From: Vicinamibacteria bacterium
GTDB taxonomy: Bacteria > Acidobacteriota > Vicinamibacteria > Fen-336
Length of the DNA: 61,030 bases
NCBI GenBank assembly: GCA_041493035.1
Contig: JBGPYB010000005.1
Location: 1-61,030, forward strand
Direction of reading: 5' to 3'
Shown here: positions 1,809 through 47,299 of the stretch, piece by piece
How the letters are laid out: the number at the start of each line of letters is the position of its first letter
How positions within the stretch are numbered: position 1 is the first letter of the stretch
The notes under the pieces: generated by a model
Databases searched by the model: none
Told to the model about the DNA's origin: nothing
What the model saw: only the letters and a program-made list of their open reading frames with translations
Program-made: the position numbers and the translations under genes

Positions 1809-3230
1809 CTAGGTGACGATCCGGGCGACCAGGTCGTAGTCGTGGGATTCGGTGATTTCGCACGTCACGAAGCTGCCGGGGAGCGCCGACCCGTCATTGA
1901 TGATCACGGCACCGTCGATTTCGGGGGCCTGTCCTGCCGTCCGGCCCCGGAGGAGAAGGTCGGTATCTTCGTGAGTTCCCTCCACGAGGACCTCCACGCG
2001 CTCGCCGACTCGACTCCGGTTTCGACGGGCGGAAAGGCGCTTCTGGAGGGCCATCACCCGTCGCCGGCGGCTCTCCTTGACCCGGGTCGCCACCCGATCC
2101 GGAAGGTCGAAGGATGTGGTGCCCTCCTCGTCGGAGAAGGTGAAGACCCCCACGTTGTCGAAAGCCCCCGCCTTCACGAACTCGAGAAGCTCTTCGAACT
2201 CGTCCTCCGTCTCCCCGGGAAAGCCGACGATGAACGACGTGCGCACCGTGAGACCGGGGACGCGTTCTCGCATCCGCTCGACGAGCCCAAGGAGGTTCCC
2301 TTTGCCCGTCGGCCGCTTCATCCGCCGGAGCACCGAGTCGGCGGCGTGCTGCAACGGGATGTCGACGTACTTGACGACCTTCTCCTCCGAGGCGATGGCG
2401 CCCAAGATGCCGTCGGTCATCGTGGCCGGATAGGCGTACATCACGCGGATCCACCGCAGGCCGTCAATGGCGCCGAGTGCTCGGAGCAACGTGGCGAGCC
2501 CGTCGCGCATCCCCAGGTCCAGACCGTAGCGAGTGGAGTCCTGGGCGATCAGAACCACCTCCTTGACGCCTCGCGCCGCCAGGGCCCGAGCTTCCGCCAC
2601 GATGTCGGCGGTCGGCCGGCTACGATGGCGCCCCCGGAGCGTGGGGATGATGCAGAAGCTGCACGTGTAGTCGCATCCTTCGCTGATCTTCACATAGGCC
2701 ATCCAGGCGGGCGTCGACAGGACGCGGGGTGACTGATGGTCGTAGACCCATTGCGGCAGACCCGTCGCCGCGTCGGTCGTGGTGGCCTCTCCCTCCACCG
2801 CCCGAAGGATGTCGTCGACCTGTCCGGTGCCGAGGGTCGCGTCGATCTCGGGGATCTCGCGGCGCAAGTCCGCGTCGTAGCGTTGGGCCAGGCAACCGGT
2901 CACGACGAGGCGCTTCGCGCGGCCCGATTCCTTCTCGCGCGCCATCTCCAGGATCGTGTCGATCGACTCCTGCTTGGCTCGGTCGATGAAGGCGCAGGTA
3001 TTGACCACGATCACGTCGGCCTGGCGAGCATCGGCGGCGATCTCGTAGCCTCTCTGCCGCAGATGACCGAGCATCACTTCGCTGTCGACGAGATTCTTCG
3101 GACAGCCCAGGCTCACCAGACCGACCTTGGTTGAGCTAGGGGGCGCTGCTCCGGGAACTCCGGCCTCCGGCTCGGCCTTGGACTGGCGCGTGCCGTCGAA
3201 GCGGACCGGCGCCCACACCCCGCTGCTCAT
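1809..3230 (-). CDS. rimO: Ribosomal protein S12 methylthiotransferase RimO
   Basis: SLGCPKNLVDSE, NTCAFI, radical SAM CDYTCSFC and a C-terminal TRAM domain (APEIDG); start placed at ATG 3230 behind AGGAGG. Confidence 0.95.
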   Translation of the reverse strand: MSSGVWAPVRFDGTRQSKAEPEAGVPGAAPPSSTKVGLVSLGCPKNLVDSEVMLGHLRQRGYEIAADARQADVIVVNTCAFIDRAKQESIDTILEMAREKESGRAKRLVVTGCLAQRYDADLRREIPEIDATLGTGQVDDILRAVEGEATTTDAATGLPQWVYDHQSPRVLSTPAWMAYVKISEGCDYTCSFCIIPTLRGRHRSRPTADIVAEARALAARGVKEVVLIAQDSTRYGLDLGMRDGLATLLRALGAIDGLRWIRVMYAYPATMTDGILGAIASEEKVVKYVDIPLQHAADSVLRRMKRPTGKGNLLGLVERMRERVPGLTVRTSFIVGFPGETEDEFEELLEFVKAGAFDNVGVFTFSDEEGTTSFDLPDRVATRVKESRRRRVMALQKRLSARRNRSRVGERVEVLVEGTHEDTDLLLRGRTAGQAPEIDGAVIINDGSALPGSFVTCEITESHDYDLVARIVT

Positions 3231-3258
3231 GATGCTCGGTCCTCCTGACGCCAGGGGC

Positions 3259-3528
3259 CTAGTGGGCCTTCTCGGGGGTGTCGATCTGGTTTCCCCACTC
3301 ACGGAGCTTCTCTCGATCGCTCGTGGCGTAGATCTCGTCGCCAATGTCCGCGACCTGGTCGCCGATCCCCCCCAGCACTTCGAGGTCTTCGCCCTGCTGG
3401 GCGATCAACGAGAGGTGGTGGGCCACGGCGTCGAGGCGCGGGACAGCCTTGTCCATCGCGAGGAGCAGGCCTTCGATCACTTCGACCAGCGCCTTACGAG
3501 AGAGACCGTCGTGCCACGTGGGTTCCAT
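3259..3528 (-). CDS. Small hypothetical helical protein (89 aa)
   Basis: Protein-like amphipathic ORF filling the gap before rimO; TATCAT -10 box 6 nt before the ATG. Confidence 0.65.
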   Translation of the reverse strand: MEPTWHDGLSRKALVEVIEGLLLAMDKAVPRLDAVAHHLSLIAQQGEDLEVLGGIGDQVADIGDEIYATSDREKLREWGNQIDTPEKAH

Positions 3529-28801: not shown

Positions 28802-29160
28802 TGGTGGAGGCGGCGGGAGTCGAACCCGCGTCCGGAAGCGCGCCGGCGAGAGACTCTACAAGCTTAGTCCGACCTGCTGTTTCGCCCCCGCCGTGAAGGT
28901 CGAACGAAACCGGCGAAGACTAGTCCGATTGATCTCGCCTTCCGCCCCCGGACCGAGAGCTAGGGCCAGCCCACCTTTATGACGCTCTGTCCAACCCCCG
29001 TGGGCGGGGAGCCGGGAGAGCGGGTTACCTAACGGTTAGTTAGGCAGCCAGTGCCAAGTTATCGTTGGCAGGTATGTCTTTCCACCGGATTTACGAGCCG
29101 GTAGCACGCTCGGCCTGCATCTCTCGGGGTCGTCGTTCCCGTCGAAACCGTGACGCCCCC
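28802..29160 (-). ncRNA. ssrA: tmRNA; tag peptide ANDNLALAA* (29040-29069)
   Basis: 5' GGGGGCG...GGTTTCGAC and 3' GGTTCGACTCCCGCCGCCTCCACCA with a G3-U acceptor pair; tag frame GCC AAC GAT AAC TTG GCA CTG GCT GCC TAA. Confidence 0.97.
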
Positions 29161-40417: not shown

Positions 40418-41158
40418 ATGCGCACCGACGGCCGCGCCCCGGACCAACTCCGCGAGGTGAAGATCACCACGCGTTACATGAAGCATGCCGAAGGATCGGC
40501 CCTCATCGAGGTGGGCGACACACGCGTCGCCTGCACCGTGAGCGTCGAGGATCGTGTCCCGCCGTTCCTCAAGGGCAAGGGCGAAGGGTGGATCACGGCG
40601 GAGTACGGCATGCTCCCACGTGCCACCGGCACGCGGTCTCAGCGCGAGGTCACGAAAGGTCGCGCCTCGGGACGCACCCACGAGATCCAACGACTCGTGG
40701 GGCGCTCCCTTCGCGCCATCGTCGACTTGCGGGCACTCGGAGAACGGACGCTCTGGGTCGACTGCGACGTGATCCAAGCCGACGGCGGCACGCGCACGGC
40801 CTCGATCACCGGAGCCTTTGTGGCGCTCGTGGAAGCGCTCCGCCACATGAAGAAGGCGGACACGCTCCAGGCCTTGCCGATCACCGACTTCGTGGCCGCC
40901 ACCTCAGTAGGCAAGGTGGGGGGCGAGGTCCTCCTGGACCTCAACTACGACGAGGACTCGAAGGCCGAGGTCGACATGAACATCGTAAAGACCGGCAGCG
41001 GGCTCTTCGTCGAGGTGCAGGGGACCGCCGAGGAGGCGCCCTTCAGCGGAGACGAATTGGCCAAGCTGATGGCCGCCGCCGACAAGGGTATCGCCGACCT
41101 GGTCGCTTTGCAGAAGAAGGCGCTCGGCGACGTCCCGTTGCTCAAGCCGAAGGCTTGA
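40418..41158 (+). CDS. rph: Ribonuclease PH
   Basis: [50 protein letters not shown]; GGAGG RBS. Confidence 0.97.
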
Positions 41159-41186
41159 CGCCTCCTTGCTGGGCTTCGATCGGACC

Positions 41187-42218
41187 ATGAACATCCGGAT
41201 TCCGGAGAAGAACAAGAAGGCCGGCGTTTGCTACGCCGTCACGCGGGACGGCCTCGAGCTTCCCGTCGTCGACGTCACGCATCCCGCCTTCGTCCTGACC
41301 GTCAGCGACGAAACCCTCGCCGAGCTGACGCGGGTGTTTGTTCGAGACGAAGAACGCCGGGCCAAGATGCCCGCTTTCCTCCAGGAACTGCTCTTCTGGC
41401 TCGTGCTCCGAGGTTCGGTCCTTGGACGCGGGATCCTCGCTGCCGACGGAACGTTCGTCACCGGCATGAACACCTACCTGATGAAGCTCGGCCCCGACAA
41501 CCTGGGGGCCGGATACGCGGGGAACATCGACCGACGTATCGCGGCAGCGCTGCCGCCGCTCTCGGTGCGCCTGCGCTTGCAAGACGTGGCGCGACTCCTC
41601 GCCGATGGCCTCGCTCCAGCCCTTGGCTCACGACCGGGTCGGCCCCTGCGTTTGCTGAACATCGCCGGTGGGCCCGCCGCCGACAGCCTGAACGCCCTGA
41701 TCCTCATCCGGAAGGAGCACCCGGAATGGCTGGCCGGTCGCTCGGTCCGCATCGAGGTCCTCGACGGTGACGACGAAGGGCCCGAGTTCGGTGCGCGCGC
41801 CCTGGCAACATTGCTGTCCGAGGGCGTTTCACTCCACGGCGCCGAGATCGGCCTCGAACACGTCCCCTACGACTGGAAGGATGTGGAGGCGTTGCGCAAG
41901 CGGCTGGACGGCGCGGACACGGGCGACACGATCATCGCCGCGTCGTCCGAAGGTGGACTCTTCGAGTACGGCTCCGACGACGAGATCGTCGCCAACCTGG
42001 CGGTGCTGCGCGGCGCCACGCCCGCGGACTCCATCATGGTTGGCTCCGTGACACGAGGCGAAGGCCCGGCGCAGCAGGTGAAAGCCTCGACTCGAGTCGC
42101 CAGCCGCCCGCGTACCCTCGAGGCTTTCACCGCTCTGGTCCACCGCTCCGGCTGGACGGTCGCGCGTGCCCTCAAGGCCCCGTTCAGCTACAACGTCAGC
42201 CTGCGCCCCCGAAACTAG
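41187..42218 (+). CDS. Conserved hypothetical protein, SAM-methyltransferase-like fold
   Basis: LLNIAGGPA glycine loop, VLDGD, SEGGLFEY. Confidence 0.7.
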   Translation: MNIRIPEKNKKAGVCYAVTRDGLELPVVDVTHPAFVLTVSDETLAELTRVFVRDEERRAKMPAFLQELLFWLVLRGSVLGRGILAADGTFVTGMNTYLMKLGPDNLGAGYAGNIDRRIAAALPPLSVRLRLQDVARLLADGLAPALGSRPGRPLRLLNIAGGPAADSLNALILIRKEHPEWLAGRSVRIEVLDGDDEGPEFGARALATLLSEGVSLHGAEIGLEHVPYDWKDVEALRKRLDGADTGDTIIAASSEGGLFEYGSDDEIVANLAVLRGATPADSIMVGSVTRGEGPAQQVKASTRVASRPRTLEAFTALVHRSGWTVARALKAPFSYNVSLRPRN

Positions 42219-42233
42219 AGCCTCGCGCCGTGG

Positions 42234-42530
42234 TCAGCGGTGGCGCCAATAGTCGGGCCGCCTCTTCGCGTGGGCAACGGCGACGATCCAGACAACGTCG
42301 TCCTCGAAACGATAGACGACGCTGAAGGGATAGCGATCCAGCACGAAACGGCGAGTCTTGCGTCGCGAAGGGCTCCCAGAGCCCGGGGACGTCCTGATCA
42401 GATAAGGCGCTCGTTCGATCTCCACCAGGAACCCGTCCGCTGCTTGAGTGCTGCGCTCGCTGTACCAAGTCGCGGCGCGAGCTACGTCATCGGCGGCGCC
42501 CCGGAGGAGCCTAAGGGCGCTTGCGGCCAC
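42234..42530 (-). CDS. ParE/RelE-family toxin
   Basis: A..D...A..WY, RYPFSVVY, IVAVAHAKRRPDYW. Confidence 0.88.
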   Translation of the reverse strand: MAASALRLLRGAADDVARAATWYSERSTQAADGFLVEIERAPYLIRTSPGSGSPSRRKTRRFVLDRYPFSVVYRFEDDVVWIVAVAHAKRRPDYWRHR

Positions 42531-42756
42531 TCCGAGCCCGAAGAATGCCAGCCTTTACCTCAGGCCATTCGACCGAAGACGCCTTCTGGCGAGCGAACTG
42601 GGCAAGTCGGCGATCGATCTCGCGATTCCAAGACTGATGGGCGTCGGCGTCCCGGCCGGGGTCCAGGCTAAGGATCAGGTTACCCGCGAGGTCGGCTCGC
42701 GCCTTCACCGGAAGGCGGAGGGCTTCCTCGAGCAACGTCGCAGTTCGTGCGGCCAT
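42511..42756 (-). CDS. Addiction-module antitoxin (TIGR02574-like)
   Basis: EALRLP...RA.LA..L..SL, W..EIDRR, VEWPEV. Confidence 0.88.
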   Translation of the reverse strand: MAARTATLLEEALRLPVKARADLAGNLILSLDPGRDADAHQSWNREIDRRLAQFARQKASSVEWPEVKAGILRARSGRKRP

Positions 42757-42795
42757 GGCCCGAGGATACCACCAGGCCGGACACGTGGGGTCCGT

Positions 42796-43389
42796 TTACT
42801 GGAGGGTCGCGAGGAACTCCCGGAGCCGGGCGAAGGCCTTGCCGCGGTGGCTCACGCGGTCCTTCTCCTCGTGGCTCACTTCGCCGAAGGTCTTGCCGAA
42901 GGGCGGATAGAAGAAGAGCGGGTCGTAGCCGAAGCCATTCGGGCCGCACACTCCCTCGGCGATGCGCCCCTCGACGGTCTCCACGACCTGGAACAGGATC
43001 TCCGCGCCCCGCGCCACCGCAACCGCGCTCGTGAACCGCGCGCCGCGGCGCTCGGCGGGAACCCCCATCAACCGCTCGAGCAGCAGCCGGTTCCGGTCGG
43101 CGTCCGTCGCTCCTTCGCCGCCGAAGCGGCTCGAGTAAAGTCCCGGCTCTCCGTTCATCGCGTCGACGGCGAGCCCGGAGTCGTCGGCGACCGCCAGCAG
43201 GCCCGATCGCTGCGCGTAGTGCTGCGCCTTGAGGATCGCGTTAGAGGCGAAGCTCGTCCCCGTCTCCTCGGGAGCCTCCAGGATCCCCACGTCACGCGGC
43301 CCCACGATGCGGAACGAGAGCCCCTCGACCAGCACCTTCATTTCGGCGAGCTTCCCCGGATTCTGGCTGGCGATGAGGAGGTCGGTCAT
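42796..43389 (-). CDS. rdgB: Non-canonical purine NTP pyrophosphatase RdgB (HAM1)
   Basis: ASQNPGKLAE, ADDSGL, PGLYSSR, GFGYDPLF, SHRGKA. Confidence 0.96.
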   Translation of the reverse strand: MTDLLIASQNPGKLAEMKVLVEGLSFRIVGPRDVGILEAPEETGTSFASNAILKAQHYAQRSGLLAVADDSGLAVDAMNGEPGLYSSRFGGEGATDADRNRLLLERLMGVPAERRGARFTSAVAVARGAEILFQVVETVEGRIAEGVCGPNGFGYDPLFFYPPFGKTFGEVSHEEKDRVSHRGKAFARLREFLATLQ

Positions 43390-43463: not shown

Positions 43464-43541
<78 letters not shown>

Positions 43542-43589
43542 TTTGATTCAGTCAGTTACATTGGAACGCCGAATCCGACCAGAGACCGA

Positions 43590-43675: not shown

Positions 43676-44799
43676 ATGAGTGCGAGCATGACGCGGGAGC
43701 AAGCCCTCGCTCTCCTCGCAGAACTCGCGGAACGGAAGACTATCGGGAATATTGCGGCGGATAGGGCGCAGTTCATCGCGTGGGCCGCGCAGGGAGAGAG
43801 CGCACTAACCACCCTCCTCCCCCCCTCCGACCCCCTCCTCCAACGGTATCGACGCTCGATCGATCGGTACGACAAGGGCGGCGTCGATGTACTAGAAGCC
43901 GTCACCGCCGTTCTCGGCATGTTTGACGCGTGCAAGGCCGTTGCGGAAAAAGTGTCCATGCACGAACTGGGGGCCAGACGATCGCTTCCAGCCCAGCCCC
44001 GTCAATCTTCATCTCCCACTCATCGATCGACGCGGCGCTCGCGAACCTCGTGGCCGACCTGCTGCAATCCGTCCTGCGACTCGGGCCGACGGAGCTCCGC
44101 TGCACCAGCGTTGATGCCTACAGCCTTGACGGCGGGGTCGACATCGACGACAAGATCCGAGCCGAGGCACTGGGGGCCAAGGTGGTCATCGGCCTCATCT
44201 CCTTCGCGAGTCTCGACTCCCTATACGTCGCCTTTGAACTCGGGGCGCGCTGGGGCGCAGGAACGCTTCTCATTCCCATCCTCGCAACCGGCGTACCGGT
44301 GTCGAGCATCAAGAGTGGGCCTCTGGGCGGGAAGCGAGCGCTCCGTTTGGACAACCGCAGCAACCTCCACCGGCTCGTTGATCAGGTCGGGAAAGAGCTC
44401 AAGATTGAGCCGAACCCTGCCGCCTCCTACCAAACGAAAACCGACGCTATCGTCTCGCTCGCAAACGCAACGCCGTCACCCACTGAGGCTCCCGCCGCGC
44501 GGCCAGGACCATTGTCGGCAAGGGATAAGGGCGAGAGATTGTTGAACAGCAACGCCGACGCGCGAAAGGTGTTCGAGATCCTCGCGGAGGCCGATCCCGG
44601 AGTTACTGTTTCACTCGCGCACATCAGGGACACACTCGCGAACCTCAAGCTCAGCCTTCGTCCGCAGCGCCTGCAGTTCGTTGTTGAGGCCCTGATGAGT
44701 TGCGGAGTGGTGGACGGGTATGAGCAGTACAAGGGCCCCTACGGCTACGACCTCAACTCGGATGGGCGGGCGCTCGCGGCTGAACGAGGGGTCATCTGA
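43676..44799 (+). CDS. Helical NTD - TIR - winged-helix protein, split by a single-base frameshift near the G5 run 43969-43973
   Basis: TIR motifs IFISHSS.D, VIGLIS..S..S.YVAFELGA.W, LIPIL in frame 43930-44799; helical N-terminus in frame 43676; one extra G joins them. Confidence 0.8.
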
Positions 44800-44838: not shown

Positions 44839-45166
44839 ATGGCAAGCGGGAGGGGCAAGTCGAAGGCGGCGCGACCTAGGCGACACGAGCAACCTCCCTC
44901 TTCAGAGCTACCTCACGGCGCACGGGGGTCCGGAGGCCTATGGTGTCAGCTTCGAGGGGATGAACATGCTCGTCTGCAACGCCCCTCCCGACGACCCTTC
45001 GTTCGCGGGGATGCGGGCGGCCTTCCCTGCCGGAACGGACTTCCGGCTCGACACGCTTCGGGTTCTGGAGATGCCGGAAGACCAGATGCGAATCTCGTTC
45101 AATTGGGACGATCCCGACGAGCTACACATCCTCGATCCCCTTGGCCGCCTGACGCCGAGGCGCTGA
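44839..45166 (+). CDS. Small hypothetical protein in the island (start uncertain, possible frameshift near 44895)
   Basis: Protein-like frame PLQSYLTAHGGPEAYGVSFEGMNMLVCN...WDDPDELHILDP ending at 45166; the nearest upstream ATG (44839) is in another frame. Confidence 0.45.
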
Positions 45167-45352
45167 TGGGGTTTCGACGATGCGACAAAGCCTACGCGGC
45201 CCGCCTTCGGCGCTAACGCGCGCCCGGCCGAACGCGAGCGACCGTTGCCAGGACGAGTGCATGTCCGTTTGCCTGTATGAACGTCGTGTGAATGGAGGAT
45301 TGAGAAGCATCGACGAAGCGCGGCGGCGTATGCTGTGGGGCGGGTGGACGCG

Positions 45353-45919
45353 ATGGCTAAGGTGACTGTTCGGTTCGGGCTTCTCAGCCGAGGGGCGACG
45401 TTCTTTTCGAGTGACGAAGGTGATGCTGCGGCCCTCGTGAAGCGGGACGCGACATCGGCCTTCGTCGACGGGAGCGACTCCCAAATCGTTGAGGGCTTTT
45501 CGCCACTTCAGATTGTCTTCATCAGCGGCCCGGAACCGCAAAAAATCGAGGAGAAGTTCTCGCCCGAGCGAGTCGCCTGGCTTCGCACGCTCCGCGAGTT
45601 GGGCCGCTCGTGGTCCGCGCTCTCGAAGGACACCGGGATACCGCAGTCGACCCTTCGCTACCACCTCGATCCCGAGTTCCGAGAAAAGAATTCGAAGCGG
45701 TCCAAGGAACACTACCGAACCTACGCCGCGAGGCTAGCCTTCTTTGGAAGAGCGTCTCACCGACGCTCCGGGCGGCAATGGACCCTCGCCTACTCGTGCC
45801 CGGCTATACTTCGGCCCGAAGTCACTCTCGACCGGAATGGAACGCACGCCGCCCCACGAATCCGAGCGGAAGGCCCAACGAGACCCCGAATTCAAGGACG
45901 CGGGCTGGACAGCATCTGA
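45353..45919 (+). CDS. Hypothetical helix-turn-helix protein
   Basis: LRELGRSWSALSKDTGIPQSTLRYHL HTH pattern; C-terminal third looks like run-on sequence. Confidence 0.6.
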   Translation: MAKVTVRFGLLSRGATFFSSDEGDAAALVKRDATSAFVDGSDSQIVEGFSPLQIVFISGPEPQKIEEKFSPERVAWLRTLRELGRSWSALSKDTGIPQSTLRYHLDPEFREKNSKRSKEHYRTYAARLAFFGRASHRRSGRQWTLAYSCPAILRPEVTLDRNGTHAAPRIRAEGPTRPRIQGRGLDSI

Positions 45920-45970: not shown

Positions 45971-46041
45971 ATGATGGGCAAGAAGGCCCTCAACGAAACC
46001 GAGGCCTGCCAGAACTTCATCACTCCTGCCATCGTCGGGGC

Positions 46042-46042
<1 letters not shown>
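45971..46042 (+). pseudogene. hsdR: N-terminal stub of a type I restriction endonuclease R subunit (EcoAI/EcoEI-like HsdR)
   Basis: MMGKKALNETEACQNFITPAIVGA matches the recalled KK.L.E.DIC.K.ITPA...AGW start; GAGG RBS; ends at the att repeat. Confidence 0.7.
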
Positions 46043-46078
<36 letters not shown>

Positions 46079-46205: not shown

Positions 46206-46604
46206 TCAGATGAACGACACGTCGCTTGCAGCCGCCGATACCACGAAGCAGCGCTCGTTGTTCGAGTCACCATCGGCGGGGACGACAAAGAAGCCGGGGC
46301 GGCCGGGCTGGTATCCTTGCGTAGTCCCGACAATGATCTCGCCGTCCTTGAACGTGACGCGGATCTTCCGGCCCAGGGCGGGCTTGTGGGGATCGAATTC
46401 GTTCCGCTTGGCGTGCTCCGGATGCCCGGCGAGGTCTTTCACGAAGAACACCGCCTTGACATCCTGGAGCCGCACTTCGGCCGGCCTGGTTCCCGGGGCG
46501 GCTCCCGCTTCCGTAACATGGAACGCATCTTTGTTGGGCAGGAAGTCGTTCGTCGTTCCCTTGAGCGTGTGTCCGTCTTGATAGCGTACGACGATCGTGT
46601 TCAT
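46206..46604 (-). CDS. DUF6982-like protein (two internal repeats)
   Basis: VVRYQDGHTLKGTT / VTFKDGEIIVGTT duplication, KAVFFVKD, GFFVVPAD..SNNER. Confidence 0.8.
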   Translation of the reverse strand: MNTIVVRYQDGHTLKGTTNDFLPNKDAFHVTEAGAAPGTRPAEVRLQDVKAVFFVKDLAGHPEHAKRNEFDPHKPALGRKIRVTFKDGEIIVGTTQGYQPGRPGFFVVPADGDSNNERCFVVSAAASDVSFI

Positions 46605-46876: not shown

Positions 46877-47299
46877 ATGAACCTCATCGGCCTGGCCTTG
46901 CGTGTTCTGTTGCCGCTCGGCGGCGCCGTCGTGCTCGCATGGCTTCTGTTGCTCGTGTTCCTGTCGAGGACCCGCCCTCGGGGCTTGGCCCTGGAGGAGG
47001 CCTTGCGCCTGGTTCCGGACACGGTGCGCCTGCTGGGAAGGCTGGCGGCCGACCGGACGCTTCCCAAGGGCGTTCGCGTCCGCCTTGTGCTCGCCCTGGT
47101 CTATCTGGCCCTCCCCCTCGACCTTGTTCCCGACTTCATTCCTGTGATCGGCTTCGCGGATGACGCCATCGTGCTGTGCGCGGTCCTGCGCTCCGTGGTC
47201 AGACGGGCCGGCCCGGAGGCTGTTCGCCGTCATTGGCCCGGGACCAACGACGGCTTGGCCGCGCTGTGGCGGGTGGCGGGTCTTCCCGGCACTGCGTAA
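46877..47299 (+). CDS. YkvA / DUF1232 family membrane protein
   Basis: YLALPLDLVPDFIPVIGFADD. Confidence 0.9.
   Translation: MNLIGLALRVLLPLGGAVVLAWLLLLVFLSRTRPRGLALEEALRLVPDTVRLLGRLAADRTLPKGVRVRLVLALVYLALPLDLVPDFIPVIGFADDAIVLCAVLRSVVRRAGPEAVRRHWPGTNDGLAALWRVAGLPGTA

What the first reader, a model, noticed from the sequence alone, without database searches (positions are those of the whole stretch)
43676..44799. Candidate stand-alone TIR defence protein: helical NTD - TIR - winged helix, at a tRNA island
Seen: a clear TIR domain (IFISHSS...YVAFELGA.W, with the Glu used by NADase TIRs), followed by a Pro/Ala linker and a C-terminus ending Y.L...GR..A...G.I that is typical of winged helices. 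A ~95-aa helical region precedes it. Established: bacterial TIRs act as NAD+-cleaving effectors or signal producers in Thoeris, CBASS/Pycsar and short-pAgo systems, and tRNA islands are defence hotspots. Inference: no ThsA, cyclase, STING, Argonaute or NLR partner lies nearby, so this may be a single-gene or small-cassette antiphage system in which the NTD or wHTH senses infection. The neighbouring HsdR stub supports a defence context.
Basis: partly seen in the sequence, partly recalled or inferred. Interest (0 to 1): 0.8.

Follow-up and report, generated by a model that had tools for sequence, protein, structure and literature searches.

The report
Broken SpbK-like stand-alone TIR defence gene
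This is a frameshifted copy of a one-gene, NAD-cleaving TIR immune protein that resembles the Bacillus anti-phage protein SpbK but carries an extra winged-helix tail, and it sits in a small decayed island beside a proline tRNA gene.

Summary
A helical N-domain (frame A, 43676-43972) and a TIR plus winged-helix part (frame B, to 44799) are split by a one-base loss at codon 99. Two other assemblies hold the intact 374-aa protein at about 99% identity.

- **TIR domain.** It passes Pfam TIR_2. Its only sequence match in PDB and best fold match is SpbK, the single-gene NADase abortive-infection protein of B. subtilis ICEBs1. The catalytic Glu and most modelled NAD+ contacts are conserved.
- **C-terminal domain.** It folds as a MarR/PadR/ArsR-type winged helix.
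- **Family.** It spans many phyla. The TIR core is conserved, the N- and C-domains are highly variable, and there is no conserved neighbouring gene.
- **N-domain.** It is very rare and is also fused to a CAP12-type TIR.
- **Setting.** The gene lies in a 2.5-kb, lower-GC segment with no integrase found, between perfect 37-nt tRNA-Pro repeats.
- **HsdR stub.** Not supported.

Verdict: a probably inactivated member of an untested variant of a known kind, the single-protein TIR NADase defence. Interest is moderate to low.

The parts
43464..43540 (+). tRNA-Pro (anticodon TGG), the integration target
   Evidence: ARAGORN
43506..43542 (.). Left copy of the perfect 37-nt direct repeat (3' end of the tRNA), attL-like
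   Evidence: the repeat finder family D1, 100% identity, spacing 2536
43676..43972 (+). Frame A: helical N-terminal domain, residues 1-98 of the intact protein, up to the break
   Evidence: Identical to residues 1-98 of P0001 and P0070. AF2 predicts helices 7-98. The GC3 phase fits this frame.
43966..43975 (+). Site of the frame break, at codon 99 of the intact protein, in the inter-domain linker. One base fewer than the 374-aa form requires.
   Evidence: The window reads ...SMHEL-G in frame A and GGQTIASS in frame B, against ...SMHELEGQTIASS in P0001 and P0070. AF2 pLDDT is below 50 at residues 99-102.
43999..44469 (+). Frame B: TIR domain (residues 109-265). The catalytic Glu codon E188 is at 44236-44238.
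   Evidence: Pfam TIR_2. phmmer and Foldseek best match is SpbK 9phb. E188 is invariant in 56 of 56 homologues.
44470..44517 (+). Pro/Ala-rich linker (residues 266-281)
   Evidence: Translation. Lower pLDDT block, about 58.
44518..44799 (+). C-terminal winged helix-turn-helix domain (residues 282-374) plus the stop codon
   Evidence: AF2 pLDDT 94.3. Foldseek hits are RosR, PadR, MarR, ArsR and Fur wHTH domains. The homologous CTD of L060 passes Pfam MarR, 25.5 bits against 24.6.
44960..45166 (+). Small island ORF of unknown function, about 68 aa from this ATG. The frame is open from 44720.
   Evidence: GC3 0.80 in frame. No Pfam or NCBIfam hit.
45335..45919 (+). Island ORF with a weak HTH or winged-helix signal
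   Evidence: Sub-threshold Pfam HTH hits. PADLOC Csa3 wHTH model E=5.4e-5. Coding GC3 phase.
45971..46041 (+). Unverified.
   Evidence: No Pfam or PADLOC hit at E<=1. HSDR_N found nothing here at E<=10.
46042..46078 (.). Right copy of the 37-nt direct repeat, attR-like
   Evidence: the repeat finder family D1

Best explanation
The locus is a frameshifted, probably inactive copy of a 374-aa single-protein TIR NADase immune gene of the SpbK type. It is carried on a decayed 2.5-kb island at tRNA-Pro in which I found no integrase.

Inferred mechanism for the intact protein, by analogy with SpbK:
1. The protein idles as an inactive monomer or dimer.
2. One of its variable flanking domains, most likely the rare helical N-domain, binds a phage-made multimeric component.
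3. Binding crowds the TIR domains into head-to-tail arrays and completes the composite active site around Glu188.
4. NAD+ is hydrolysed and the infected cell is arrested (abortive infection).

The winged-helix tail is an accessory module. It may be a dimerisation or scaffold unit, or a second sensor for protein or DNA.

What is shown and what is inferred:
- Shown here: the domain anatomy, the kinship of the TIR to SpbK, conservation of the catalytic residues, the absence of a conserved partner gene, the patchy and mobile distribution, and the frameshift.
- Inferred only: NADase activity, the trigger, and the role of each flanking domain.
For: TIR kinship to SpbK:
- TIR_2 passes the Pfam cut-off.
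- The best PADLOC model is spbK, E=6.2e-9.
- SpbK (9phb) is the only PDB sequence hit, E=2e-4, and the best Foldseek hit, E=3.8e-5, TMt 0.74.
- By the alignment and the residue list in PMC12847820, 6 of SpbK's 9 modelled NAD+ contacts are identical (S121, S122, T148, I161, Y188, E192), 2 are conservative and 1 differs.
- SpbK G194 and W197, both mutated in that study, are also conserved.
- E188 is invariant in 56 of 56 homologues.

Architecture:
- A helical domain of about 98 aa, a linker and a TIR mirror SpbK's 4-helix bundle (1-94), linker and TIR (111-266).

Stand-alone status:
- No conserved neighbour was found.
- No SIR2_2 domain was found in the 95%-complete genome.

Modularity:
- There are 39 N-domain and 52 C-domain clusters around one TIR core among 138 sequences.
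- The N-domain profile finds 15 proteins among 1.84 billion representatives. They include fusions to the same TIR core (P0057, P0060, P0065, P0004) and to a CAP12/Pycsar-type TIR (P0062, PF10137 E=2.8e-18).

Mobility:
- The TIR-bearing gene was not found in any of 60 relatives, including the same-genus genome. Two hold N-domain remnants only and one a marginal C-terminal-region hit.
- The gene lies between 37-nt att-like repeats, in a segment with GC 0.62-0.64 against about 0.65-0.70 in the flanks.
- In 2 of 3 viral-contig loci a large terminase lies within about 6 kb of the homologue.
- Some homologues sit beside type I and IIG restriction-modification, MADS, Lamassu LmuB and PDC-S02 genes.
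Against: - No biochemical or phage data exist for any member.
- The N-domain shows no detectable homology to SpbK's. The PADLOC spbK profile matched only positions 146-284 of 308, and the N-domain alone gave 0 hits.
- SpbK has no C-terminal domain.
- Most neighbours of homologues are ordinary housekeeping genes. Integrases are only 5 of 296 neighbours scanned, and a tRNA lies within 3 kb in only 6 of 82 loci. Enrichment in defence islands was not tested against a control.
- The wHTH domains are mostly acidic or neutral (pI 4.5-6.9 in 8 of 10), which speaks against a simple DNA-sensor role.
- The copy here is broken. The database ORF call for this contig (P0071, 249 aa) lacks the first TIR strand with the Ser-Ser NAD+ contacts.
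- No homologue was found in the plasmid or cultured-phage collections.
Confidence: 0.6

Rival explanations
1. The protein is a signal-producing TIR of the Thoeris ThsB type. It would make a cyclic ADPR-type messenger for an effector encoded elsewhere in the genome, rather than deplete NAD+ itself.
For: - Bacterial TIRs can act this way. SpbK itself makes N1-cADPR, whose role is still open (PMC12847820, Discussion).
- There is a weak PADLOC ThsB1 hit, E=0.075.
Against: - No conserved neighbour was found in 82 loci.
- No ThsA-type SIR2_2 domain was found in the 95%-complete genome.
- Known signalling TIRs sit in an operon with their effector (PMC12847820).
- The ThsB match is far weaker than the spbK match.
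Confidence: 0.12
2. The protein has a non-immune role. It could be a winged-helix transcription factor that uses the TIR as an oligomerisation or NAD-sensing domain, or an addiction toxin that stabilises the island.
For: - The C-terminal fold is that of the MarR, PadR and ArsR repressors.
- Many homologues sit among housekeeping genes.
- A ParE-type toxin-antitoxin pair lies 1 kb upstream.
Against: - The catalytic Glu and the NAD+ contacts are strictly conserved.
- The wHTH is only one of 52 alternative C-domain clusters, and 18 of 138 members have fewer than 40 residues after the TIR core.
- The wHTH is mostly acidic.
- No antitoxin-like conserved neighbour was found.
- The distribution is very patchy.
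Confidence: 0.13
3. The break is an assembly or consensus error of this metagenome-assembled genome, and the organism really carries the intact 374-aa gene.
For: - The genome is a 271-contig MAG.
- Two other assemblies give the intact protein with only 1-2 other substitutions.
- Both halves keep a clean coding GC3 signal and no other defect.
Against: - The difference is not a simple change in homopolymer length, judging from the codons that the intact protein requires (inference).
- Relatives show that the same N-domain does decay: an N-domain-only remnant next to a tRNA-Pro in G026, and an IS3-adjacent remnant in G037.
- Reads could not be examined.
Confidence: 0.3

Closest known systems
SpbK (YddK) of Bacillus subtilis ICEBs1, PDB 9phb
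   Same: - Single-gene TIR protein on a mobile element.
- N-terminal helical domain of about 95 aa, then a linker, then a TIR_2 domain.
- Nearest TIR by sequence and by fold.
- The catalytic Glu and most modelled NAD+ contacts are conserved.
   Different: - The N-domain shows no detectable sequence homology to SpbK's, so the trigger is unlikely to be the same portal protein.
- There is an extra C-terminal winged helix.
- TIR identity is only about 23%.
- The host is a high-GC sediment MAG lineage rather than a Firmicute.
- No activity data exist.
Single-protein TIR defence systems of E. coli (Wang et al. 2024, PMC11350192; passages read)
   Same: One-protein systems whose defence depends on the TIR catalytic residues. 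Several have no recognisable domain besides the TIR.
   Different: The partner domains named in the passages I read are TM, AAA, TPR and DUF4238. 'Winged' and 'HTH' do not occur in the main text. Homology to this family was not tested, because I did not have their sequences.
Thoeris ThsB
   Same: Bacterial TIR with a catalytic Glu, linked to phage sensing.
   Different: Thoeris needs an adjacent ThsA effector. None is conserved here, and the ThsB model match is marginal, E=0.075.
CAP12/Pycsar-type TIR effectors (PF10137)
   Same: One protein (P0062) joins the same rare N-domain to this other TIR-like effector, which suggests a shared upstream logic.
   Different: It is a different TIR family. 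Those effectors are activated by cyclic nucleotides from a partner cyclase, and no cyclase is present here.

Membership tests
Pfam TIR_2 (PF13676) | Score above the curated gathering cut-off | tested here: met
   31.2 bits against 28. 33.3 bits in the genome search.
Catalytic (NADase-type) TIR | Conserved catalytic Glu in the position of SpbK E192 | tested here: met
   E188 aligns with SpbK E192 (numbering from PMC12847820). It is invariant in 56 of 56 homologues.
Catalytic (NADase-type) TIR | NAD+ hydrolysis measured | not testable with these tools
   This needs an enzyme assay.
SpbK system | TIR domain closest to SpbK's | tested here: met
   spbK is the best PADLOC model, E=6.2e-9. SpbK is the sole PDB sequence hit and the top Foldseek hit.
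SpbK system | N-terminal domain homologous to SpbK's portal-binding 4-helix bundle | tested here: not met
   The spbK profile matched only positions 146-284 of 308. The N-domain alone gave 0 PADLOC hits at E<=1. Only the general shape, a helical domain of about 95 aa, is shared.
SpbK system | Two-domain architecture ending with the TIR | tested here: not met
   An extra linker and a 93-aa wHTH follow the TIR.
SpbK system | Acts alone, with no obligatory neighbouring gene | tested here: met
   The largest neighbour family spans 4 of 82 loci.
Thoeris | Adjacent ThsA effector (SIR2/SLOG or macro-TM) | tested here: not met
   None of the island ORFs scanned has such a match. No conserved neighbour was found. 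No SIR2_2 was found in the genome.
Winged helix-turn-helix fold | H-H-H plus beta-hairpin wing topology that matches solved wHTH domains | tested here: met
   The model has pLDDT 94.3. The top hits are all wHTH regulators, TMq 0.60-0.75, best E=3.8e-3. The window's own CTD has no Pfam hit.
Winged helix-turn-helix fold | DNA binding | not testable with these tools
   Only a soft indicator is available: pI 5.8 for this CTD, and 8 of 10 related CTDs are acidic or neutral.
tRNA-integrated genomic island | Direct repeats that duplicate the tRNA 3' end | tested here: met
   Perfect 37-nt repeat at 43506-43542 and 46042-46078.
tRNA-integrated genomic island | Integrase gene inside the element | tested here: not met
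   None of the island ORFs scanned matches an integrase family. The element looks like a remnant.
tRNA-integrated genomic island | Composition differs from the flanks, and the site varies between relatives | tested here: met
   GC is 0.62-0.64 inside against about 0.65-0.70 in the flanks. The same-genus G001 has a different 313-aa gene after its tRNA-Pro(TGG), and G004 has tRNA-Arg and tRNA-His there.

The most novel reading that the evidence does not exclude
The conserved SpbK-type TIR core may be a chassis with two independent plug-in slots. This would make the family a set of single-chain immune receptors that combine two inputs. In this protein, a very rare helical N-domain would bind a phage protein, and a winged helix would bind nucleic acid or act as a second clustering device. 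The N-domain is also fused to a CAP12-type TIR and to a non-TIR C-terminal domain. That would make it a portable phage-sensing module shared between unrelated suicide effectors.
Probability: 0.2. Interest if true: 0.6.

Novelty: new variant of a known kind. Interest (0 to 1): 0.35.

Why it matters
If the intact allele is active, it would extend the SpbK paradigm, in which a phage component clusters TIR domains and switches on NAD+ destruction. The extension would be to a family found across many phyla with dozens of interchangeable N- and C-terminal modules. That gives a natural library for asking how single-chain TIR receptors choose their triggers, and what a winged helix adds to a TIR enzyme.

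For this genome the practical message is smaller. The gene is broken and the island is a remnant. The locus mainly illustrates turnover of defence cargo at a tRNA-Pro hotspot.

Tried and rejected
- **Homodimer prediction.** Complex prediction on two copies of P0001 gave no answer, score 0.00. This is not evidence either way.
- **Metagenome scan.** Scanning metagenome contigs with P0001 confirmed no relative.
- **Plasmids and cultured phages.** tblastn found no match at E<=1e-5.
- **N-domain word search.** A word-based search for longer proteins carrying the N-domain returned only P0001. The full HMMER search was needed.
- **Protein atlas.** The N-domain search gave scores of 0.86 or less to unnamed clusters, which is a lead only.
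- **NCBIfam.** No family matched P0001, P0062, P0063 or the island ORFs.
- **Promoter and terminator scan.** Nothing above the shuffled expectation.
- **HsdR stub.** Not detectable with HSDR_N.
- **HEPN reading of P0063.** I read an Rx4H (HEPN-like) motif in the C-terminus of P0063, but Pfam gave no hit at E<=1, so it stays a guess.
- **Programmed frameshifting.** Considered and set aside. Two other assemblies simply encode the protein in one frame, and I saw no slippery heptamer at the site in the sequence (my reading).
- **Literature.** Three searches listed no paper describing a TIR plus winged-helix single-gene defence system. I saw only listings and abstract starts for most hits, and supplements were not available.

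Full report
**Observation**

The window is high-GC, 0.674 overall. tRNA-Pro(TGG) lies at 43464-43540.

The ORF listing gives two overlapping 289-aa ORFs in different frames, 43676-44545 and 43930-44799. The GC3 phase fits frame A up to about 43970 and frame B from there to 44799. Both halves therefore look like real coding sequence, joined by a frame break.

A homology search with frame B returned a 374-aa protein, P0001, at 99% identity. Its N-terminus equals frame A and its remainder equals frame B. The exact-cluster look-up shows three members:
- P0001, 374 aa, on a 13.6-kb contig.
- P0070, 374 aa, on a 16.4-kb contig.
- P0071, 249 aa, on a 61,030-bp contig, which is the length of this window.

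The window lacks one base at codon 99, which lies in the disordered linker (AF2 pLDDT below 50 at residues 99-102). Apart from the break it differs from P0070 by one substitution and from P0001 by two. The 249-aa database call lacks the first TIR strand.

**Domains**

- **Whole protein.** AF2 on the 56-sequence alignment gave mean pLDDT 86.2. It predicts helices over residues 7-98, an alpha/beta domain at 109-265, and a helical plus hairpin domain at 282-374.
- **TIR.** The middle domain passes Pfam TIR_2. Its best PADLOC model is spbK, E=6.2e-9, matching the TIR part of the profile only. SpbK (9phb) is the only PDB chain found by sequence, E=2e-4. It is also the best Foldseek hit (E=3.8e-5, TMt 0.74), ahead of BtpA, MAL, AbTir and SPARTA TIRs.
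- **Active site.** I combined the alignment with the residue list in PMC12847820 (passages). E188 corresponds to SpbK E192. Of nine modelled NAD+ contacts, six are identical, two are conservative and one differs. SpbK G194 and W197 are also kept. E188 and G154 are the only invariant columns among 56 homologues.
- **C-terminal domain.** Modelled alone, it reached pLDDT 94.3. It matched only winged-helix regulators: RosR, PadR, ZitR/MarR, CzrA/SmtB and Fur, with TMq 0.60-0.75 and best E=3.8e-3. Its own sequence has no Pfam hit, but a homologous tail (L060) passes the MarR model.

**Family and context**

- **Spread.** A motif-seeded scan of one genome per species confirmed 107 relatives. The titles of the 80 loci kept name Acidobacteriota, Planctomycetota, Chloroflexota, Bacteroidota, Verrucomicrobiota, Pseudomonadota, Cyanobacteria, Actinomycetota, Myxococcota and others. 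Three more lie on viral contigs. In two of these a large terminase lies within about 6 kb of the homologue.
- **Modularity.** I analysed 138 sequences: 82 locus ORFs plus the 56 search hits. One locus, L048, was dropped for lack of a start codon, and some overlap between the two sets is likely. 87 have at least 40 residues before the TIR core, falling into 39 clusters. 120 have at least 40 residues after it, falling into 52 clusters.
- **Partners.** No partner gene is conserved. 568 neighbour proteins (+-4 genes) form 529 clusters, and the largest spans 4 loci.
- **Neighbours.** I scanned 296 neighbours at +-2 genes after dropping the duplicate loci L035 and L075. One further protein was left out of the batches. 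These neighbours are mixed:
  - Many are housekeeping genes.
  - Mobile and defence-type Pfam families include 5 integrases, AAA_21/AAA_15, Eco57I, Schlafen-AlbA, Mrr, AbiGi and a resolvase.
  - Strong PADLOC hits include type I and IIG restriction-modification, MADS, PD-Lambda-2_B, PDC-S20, PDC-S02 and LmuB.
  - I did not run a control, so enrichment is unproven.
- **tRNAs.** A tRNA lies within 3 kb of the gene in 6 of 82 loci.

**The N-domain**

A three-sequence profile searched against 1.84 billion representatives found 15 proteins at E<=0.001. I scanned 9 of them with Pfam:
- P0057, P0060 and P0065 carry TIR_2. P0004 is a TIR_2 family member by the precomputed annotation.
- P0062 joins the N-domain to a CAP12/Pycsar-type TIR (PF10137, E=2.8e-18).
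- P0063 has an unassigned C-terminal domain, and P0059 has no hit.
- P0066, P0068 and P0069 are multi-stretch repeat-type proteins, for example Armadillo/HEAT. I regard these hits as spurious.
- P0058, P0061, P0064 and P0067 were not scanned.

The N-domain alone has no PADLOC hit, so homology to SpbK's N-domain is not shown.

**The island**

A perfect 37-nt copy of the tRNA 3' end recurs at 46042-46078. It bounds a 2.5-kb segment with GC 0.62-0.64 against about 0.65-0.70 in the flanks. The segment holds:
- the TIR gene;
- a small unknown ORF;
- an ORF with weak HTH signals;

I found no integrase gene in it.

The TIR-bearing gene was not found in any of 60 relatives:
- G026 keeps an N-domain-only ORF next to a tRNA-Pro(CGG).
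- G037 keeps an N-domain fragment just upstream of an IS3-type transposase.
- G039 has only a marginal hit to the C-terminal region, E=6.6e-4.

The same-genus genome G001 has a different 313-aa gene after its tRNA-Pro(TGG). G004 has tRNA-Arg and tRNA-His there. The site is therefore a variable hotspot, and this gene family decays readily.

**Mechanism**

SpbK consists of a 4-helix N-domain (1-94), a linker and a TIR (111-266). It idles as a dimer. It is activated when its N-domain docks on the dodecameric SPbeta portal, which clusters the TIRs into head-to-tail strands that form the NADase site (PMC12847820: abstract, Discussion and passages). The present protein has the same front-half layout and the same catalytic constellation. 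The best-supported model is therefore trigger-induced TIR clustering and NAD+ depletion. The variable N-domain is the likeliest sensor.

The role of the winged helix is open. The CTDs are mostly acidic or neutral (8 of 10 with pI 4.5-6.9). This favours a protein-contact or dimerisation role over a classic DNA-binding one, but the evidence is soft. All activity statements are inference.

**Comparison and novelty**

Single-protein TIR defences are established. SpbK is one example. Wang et al. 2024 (PMC11350192, passages) report several one-protein TIR systems in E. coli, some with TM, AAA, TPR or DUF4238 domains. 'Winged' and 'HTH' do not occur in that main text.

My three literature searches listed no paper describing a TIR plus winged-helix system. 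I read mostly listings, and supplements were closed.

Earlier notes of this scan list 31 findings that hold all the query words (SpbK, TIR, stand-alone, NADase). The 8 shown are stand-alone TIR proteins with assorted extra domains, and one of them is SpbK itself. They are unchecked AI notes, but they show that this kind of gene turns up often.

I therefore class the locus as a new variant of a known kind. It fails SpbK membership on two tested features, the N-domain homology and the two-domain architecture. It most likely works like SpbK.

**Verdict**

The gene here is probably dead, and novelty is moderate to low. Interest: 0.35.

Noticed in passing
window 41155-42802: A 1.65-kb segment lies between rph and rdgB. 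It holds a 350-aa ORF with no Pfam or NCBIfam hit (41166-42218) and a ParE toxin plus 'Unstab_antitox' antitoxin pair (42234-42756, minus strand). In 4 of 5 relatives examined (G001-G004) rph and rdgB are adjacent, so this looks like a second insertion.
   Followed up: partly
L006 (G001) 2330-3271: The same-genus relative has a different 313-aa unknown gene directly after its tRNA-Pro(TGG), so the site carries alternative cargo.
   Followed up: no
L003 (G026) 1276-1806 minus; L004 (G037) about 1495-1692: These are N-domain-only remnants of the same gene family. One lies 142 nt from a tRNA-Pro(CGG). The other lies just upstream of an IS3-type transposase.
   Followed up: partly
P0062, P0063 (database proteins): The rare N-domain is also fused to a CAP12/Pycsar-type TIR (P0062). 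In P0063 it is fused to an unassigned C-terminal domain of about 120 aa with an Rx4H motif that I read as HEPN-like. Pfam does not support that reading.
   Followed up: partly
L015, L017, L023 and 18 other family members (C-terminal parts): The second-largest C-domain cluster (21 members) is a tandem pair of units of about 45 aa with the motif EWPDDFxMR. It has no convincing Pfam match.
   Followed up: no
P0002-P0005 (C-terminal parts): The closest full-length relatives of the N-domain plus TIR replace the winged helix with a Cys-rich, zinc-ribbon-like tail (CxxC ... CPxxH). An earlier scan note, e1-3516940, describes a similar tail in another genome.
   Followed up: no
window 46206-46604 (minus) and 46877-47299 (plus): Just outside the right repeat lie a DUF6982 gene (E=2e-28) and a DUF1232 gene.
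   Followed up: no
window 28802-29160 (minus): A tmRNA gene with the tag peptide ANDNLALAA.
   Followed up: no
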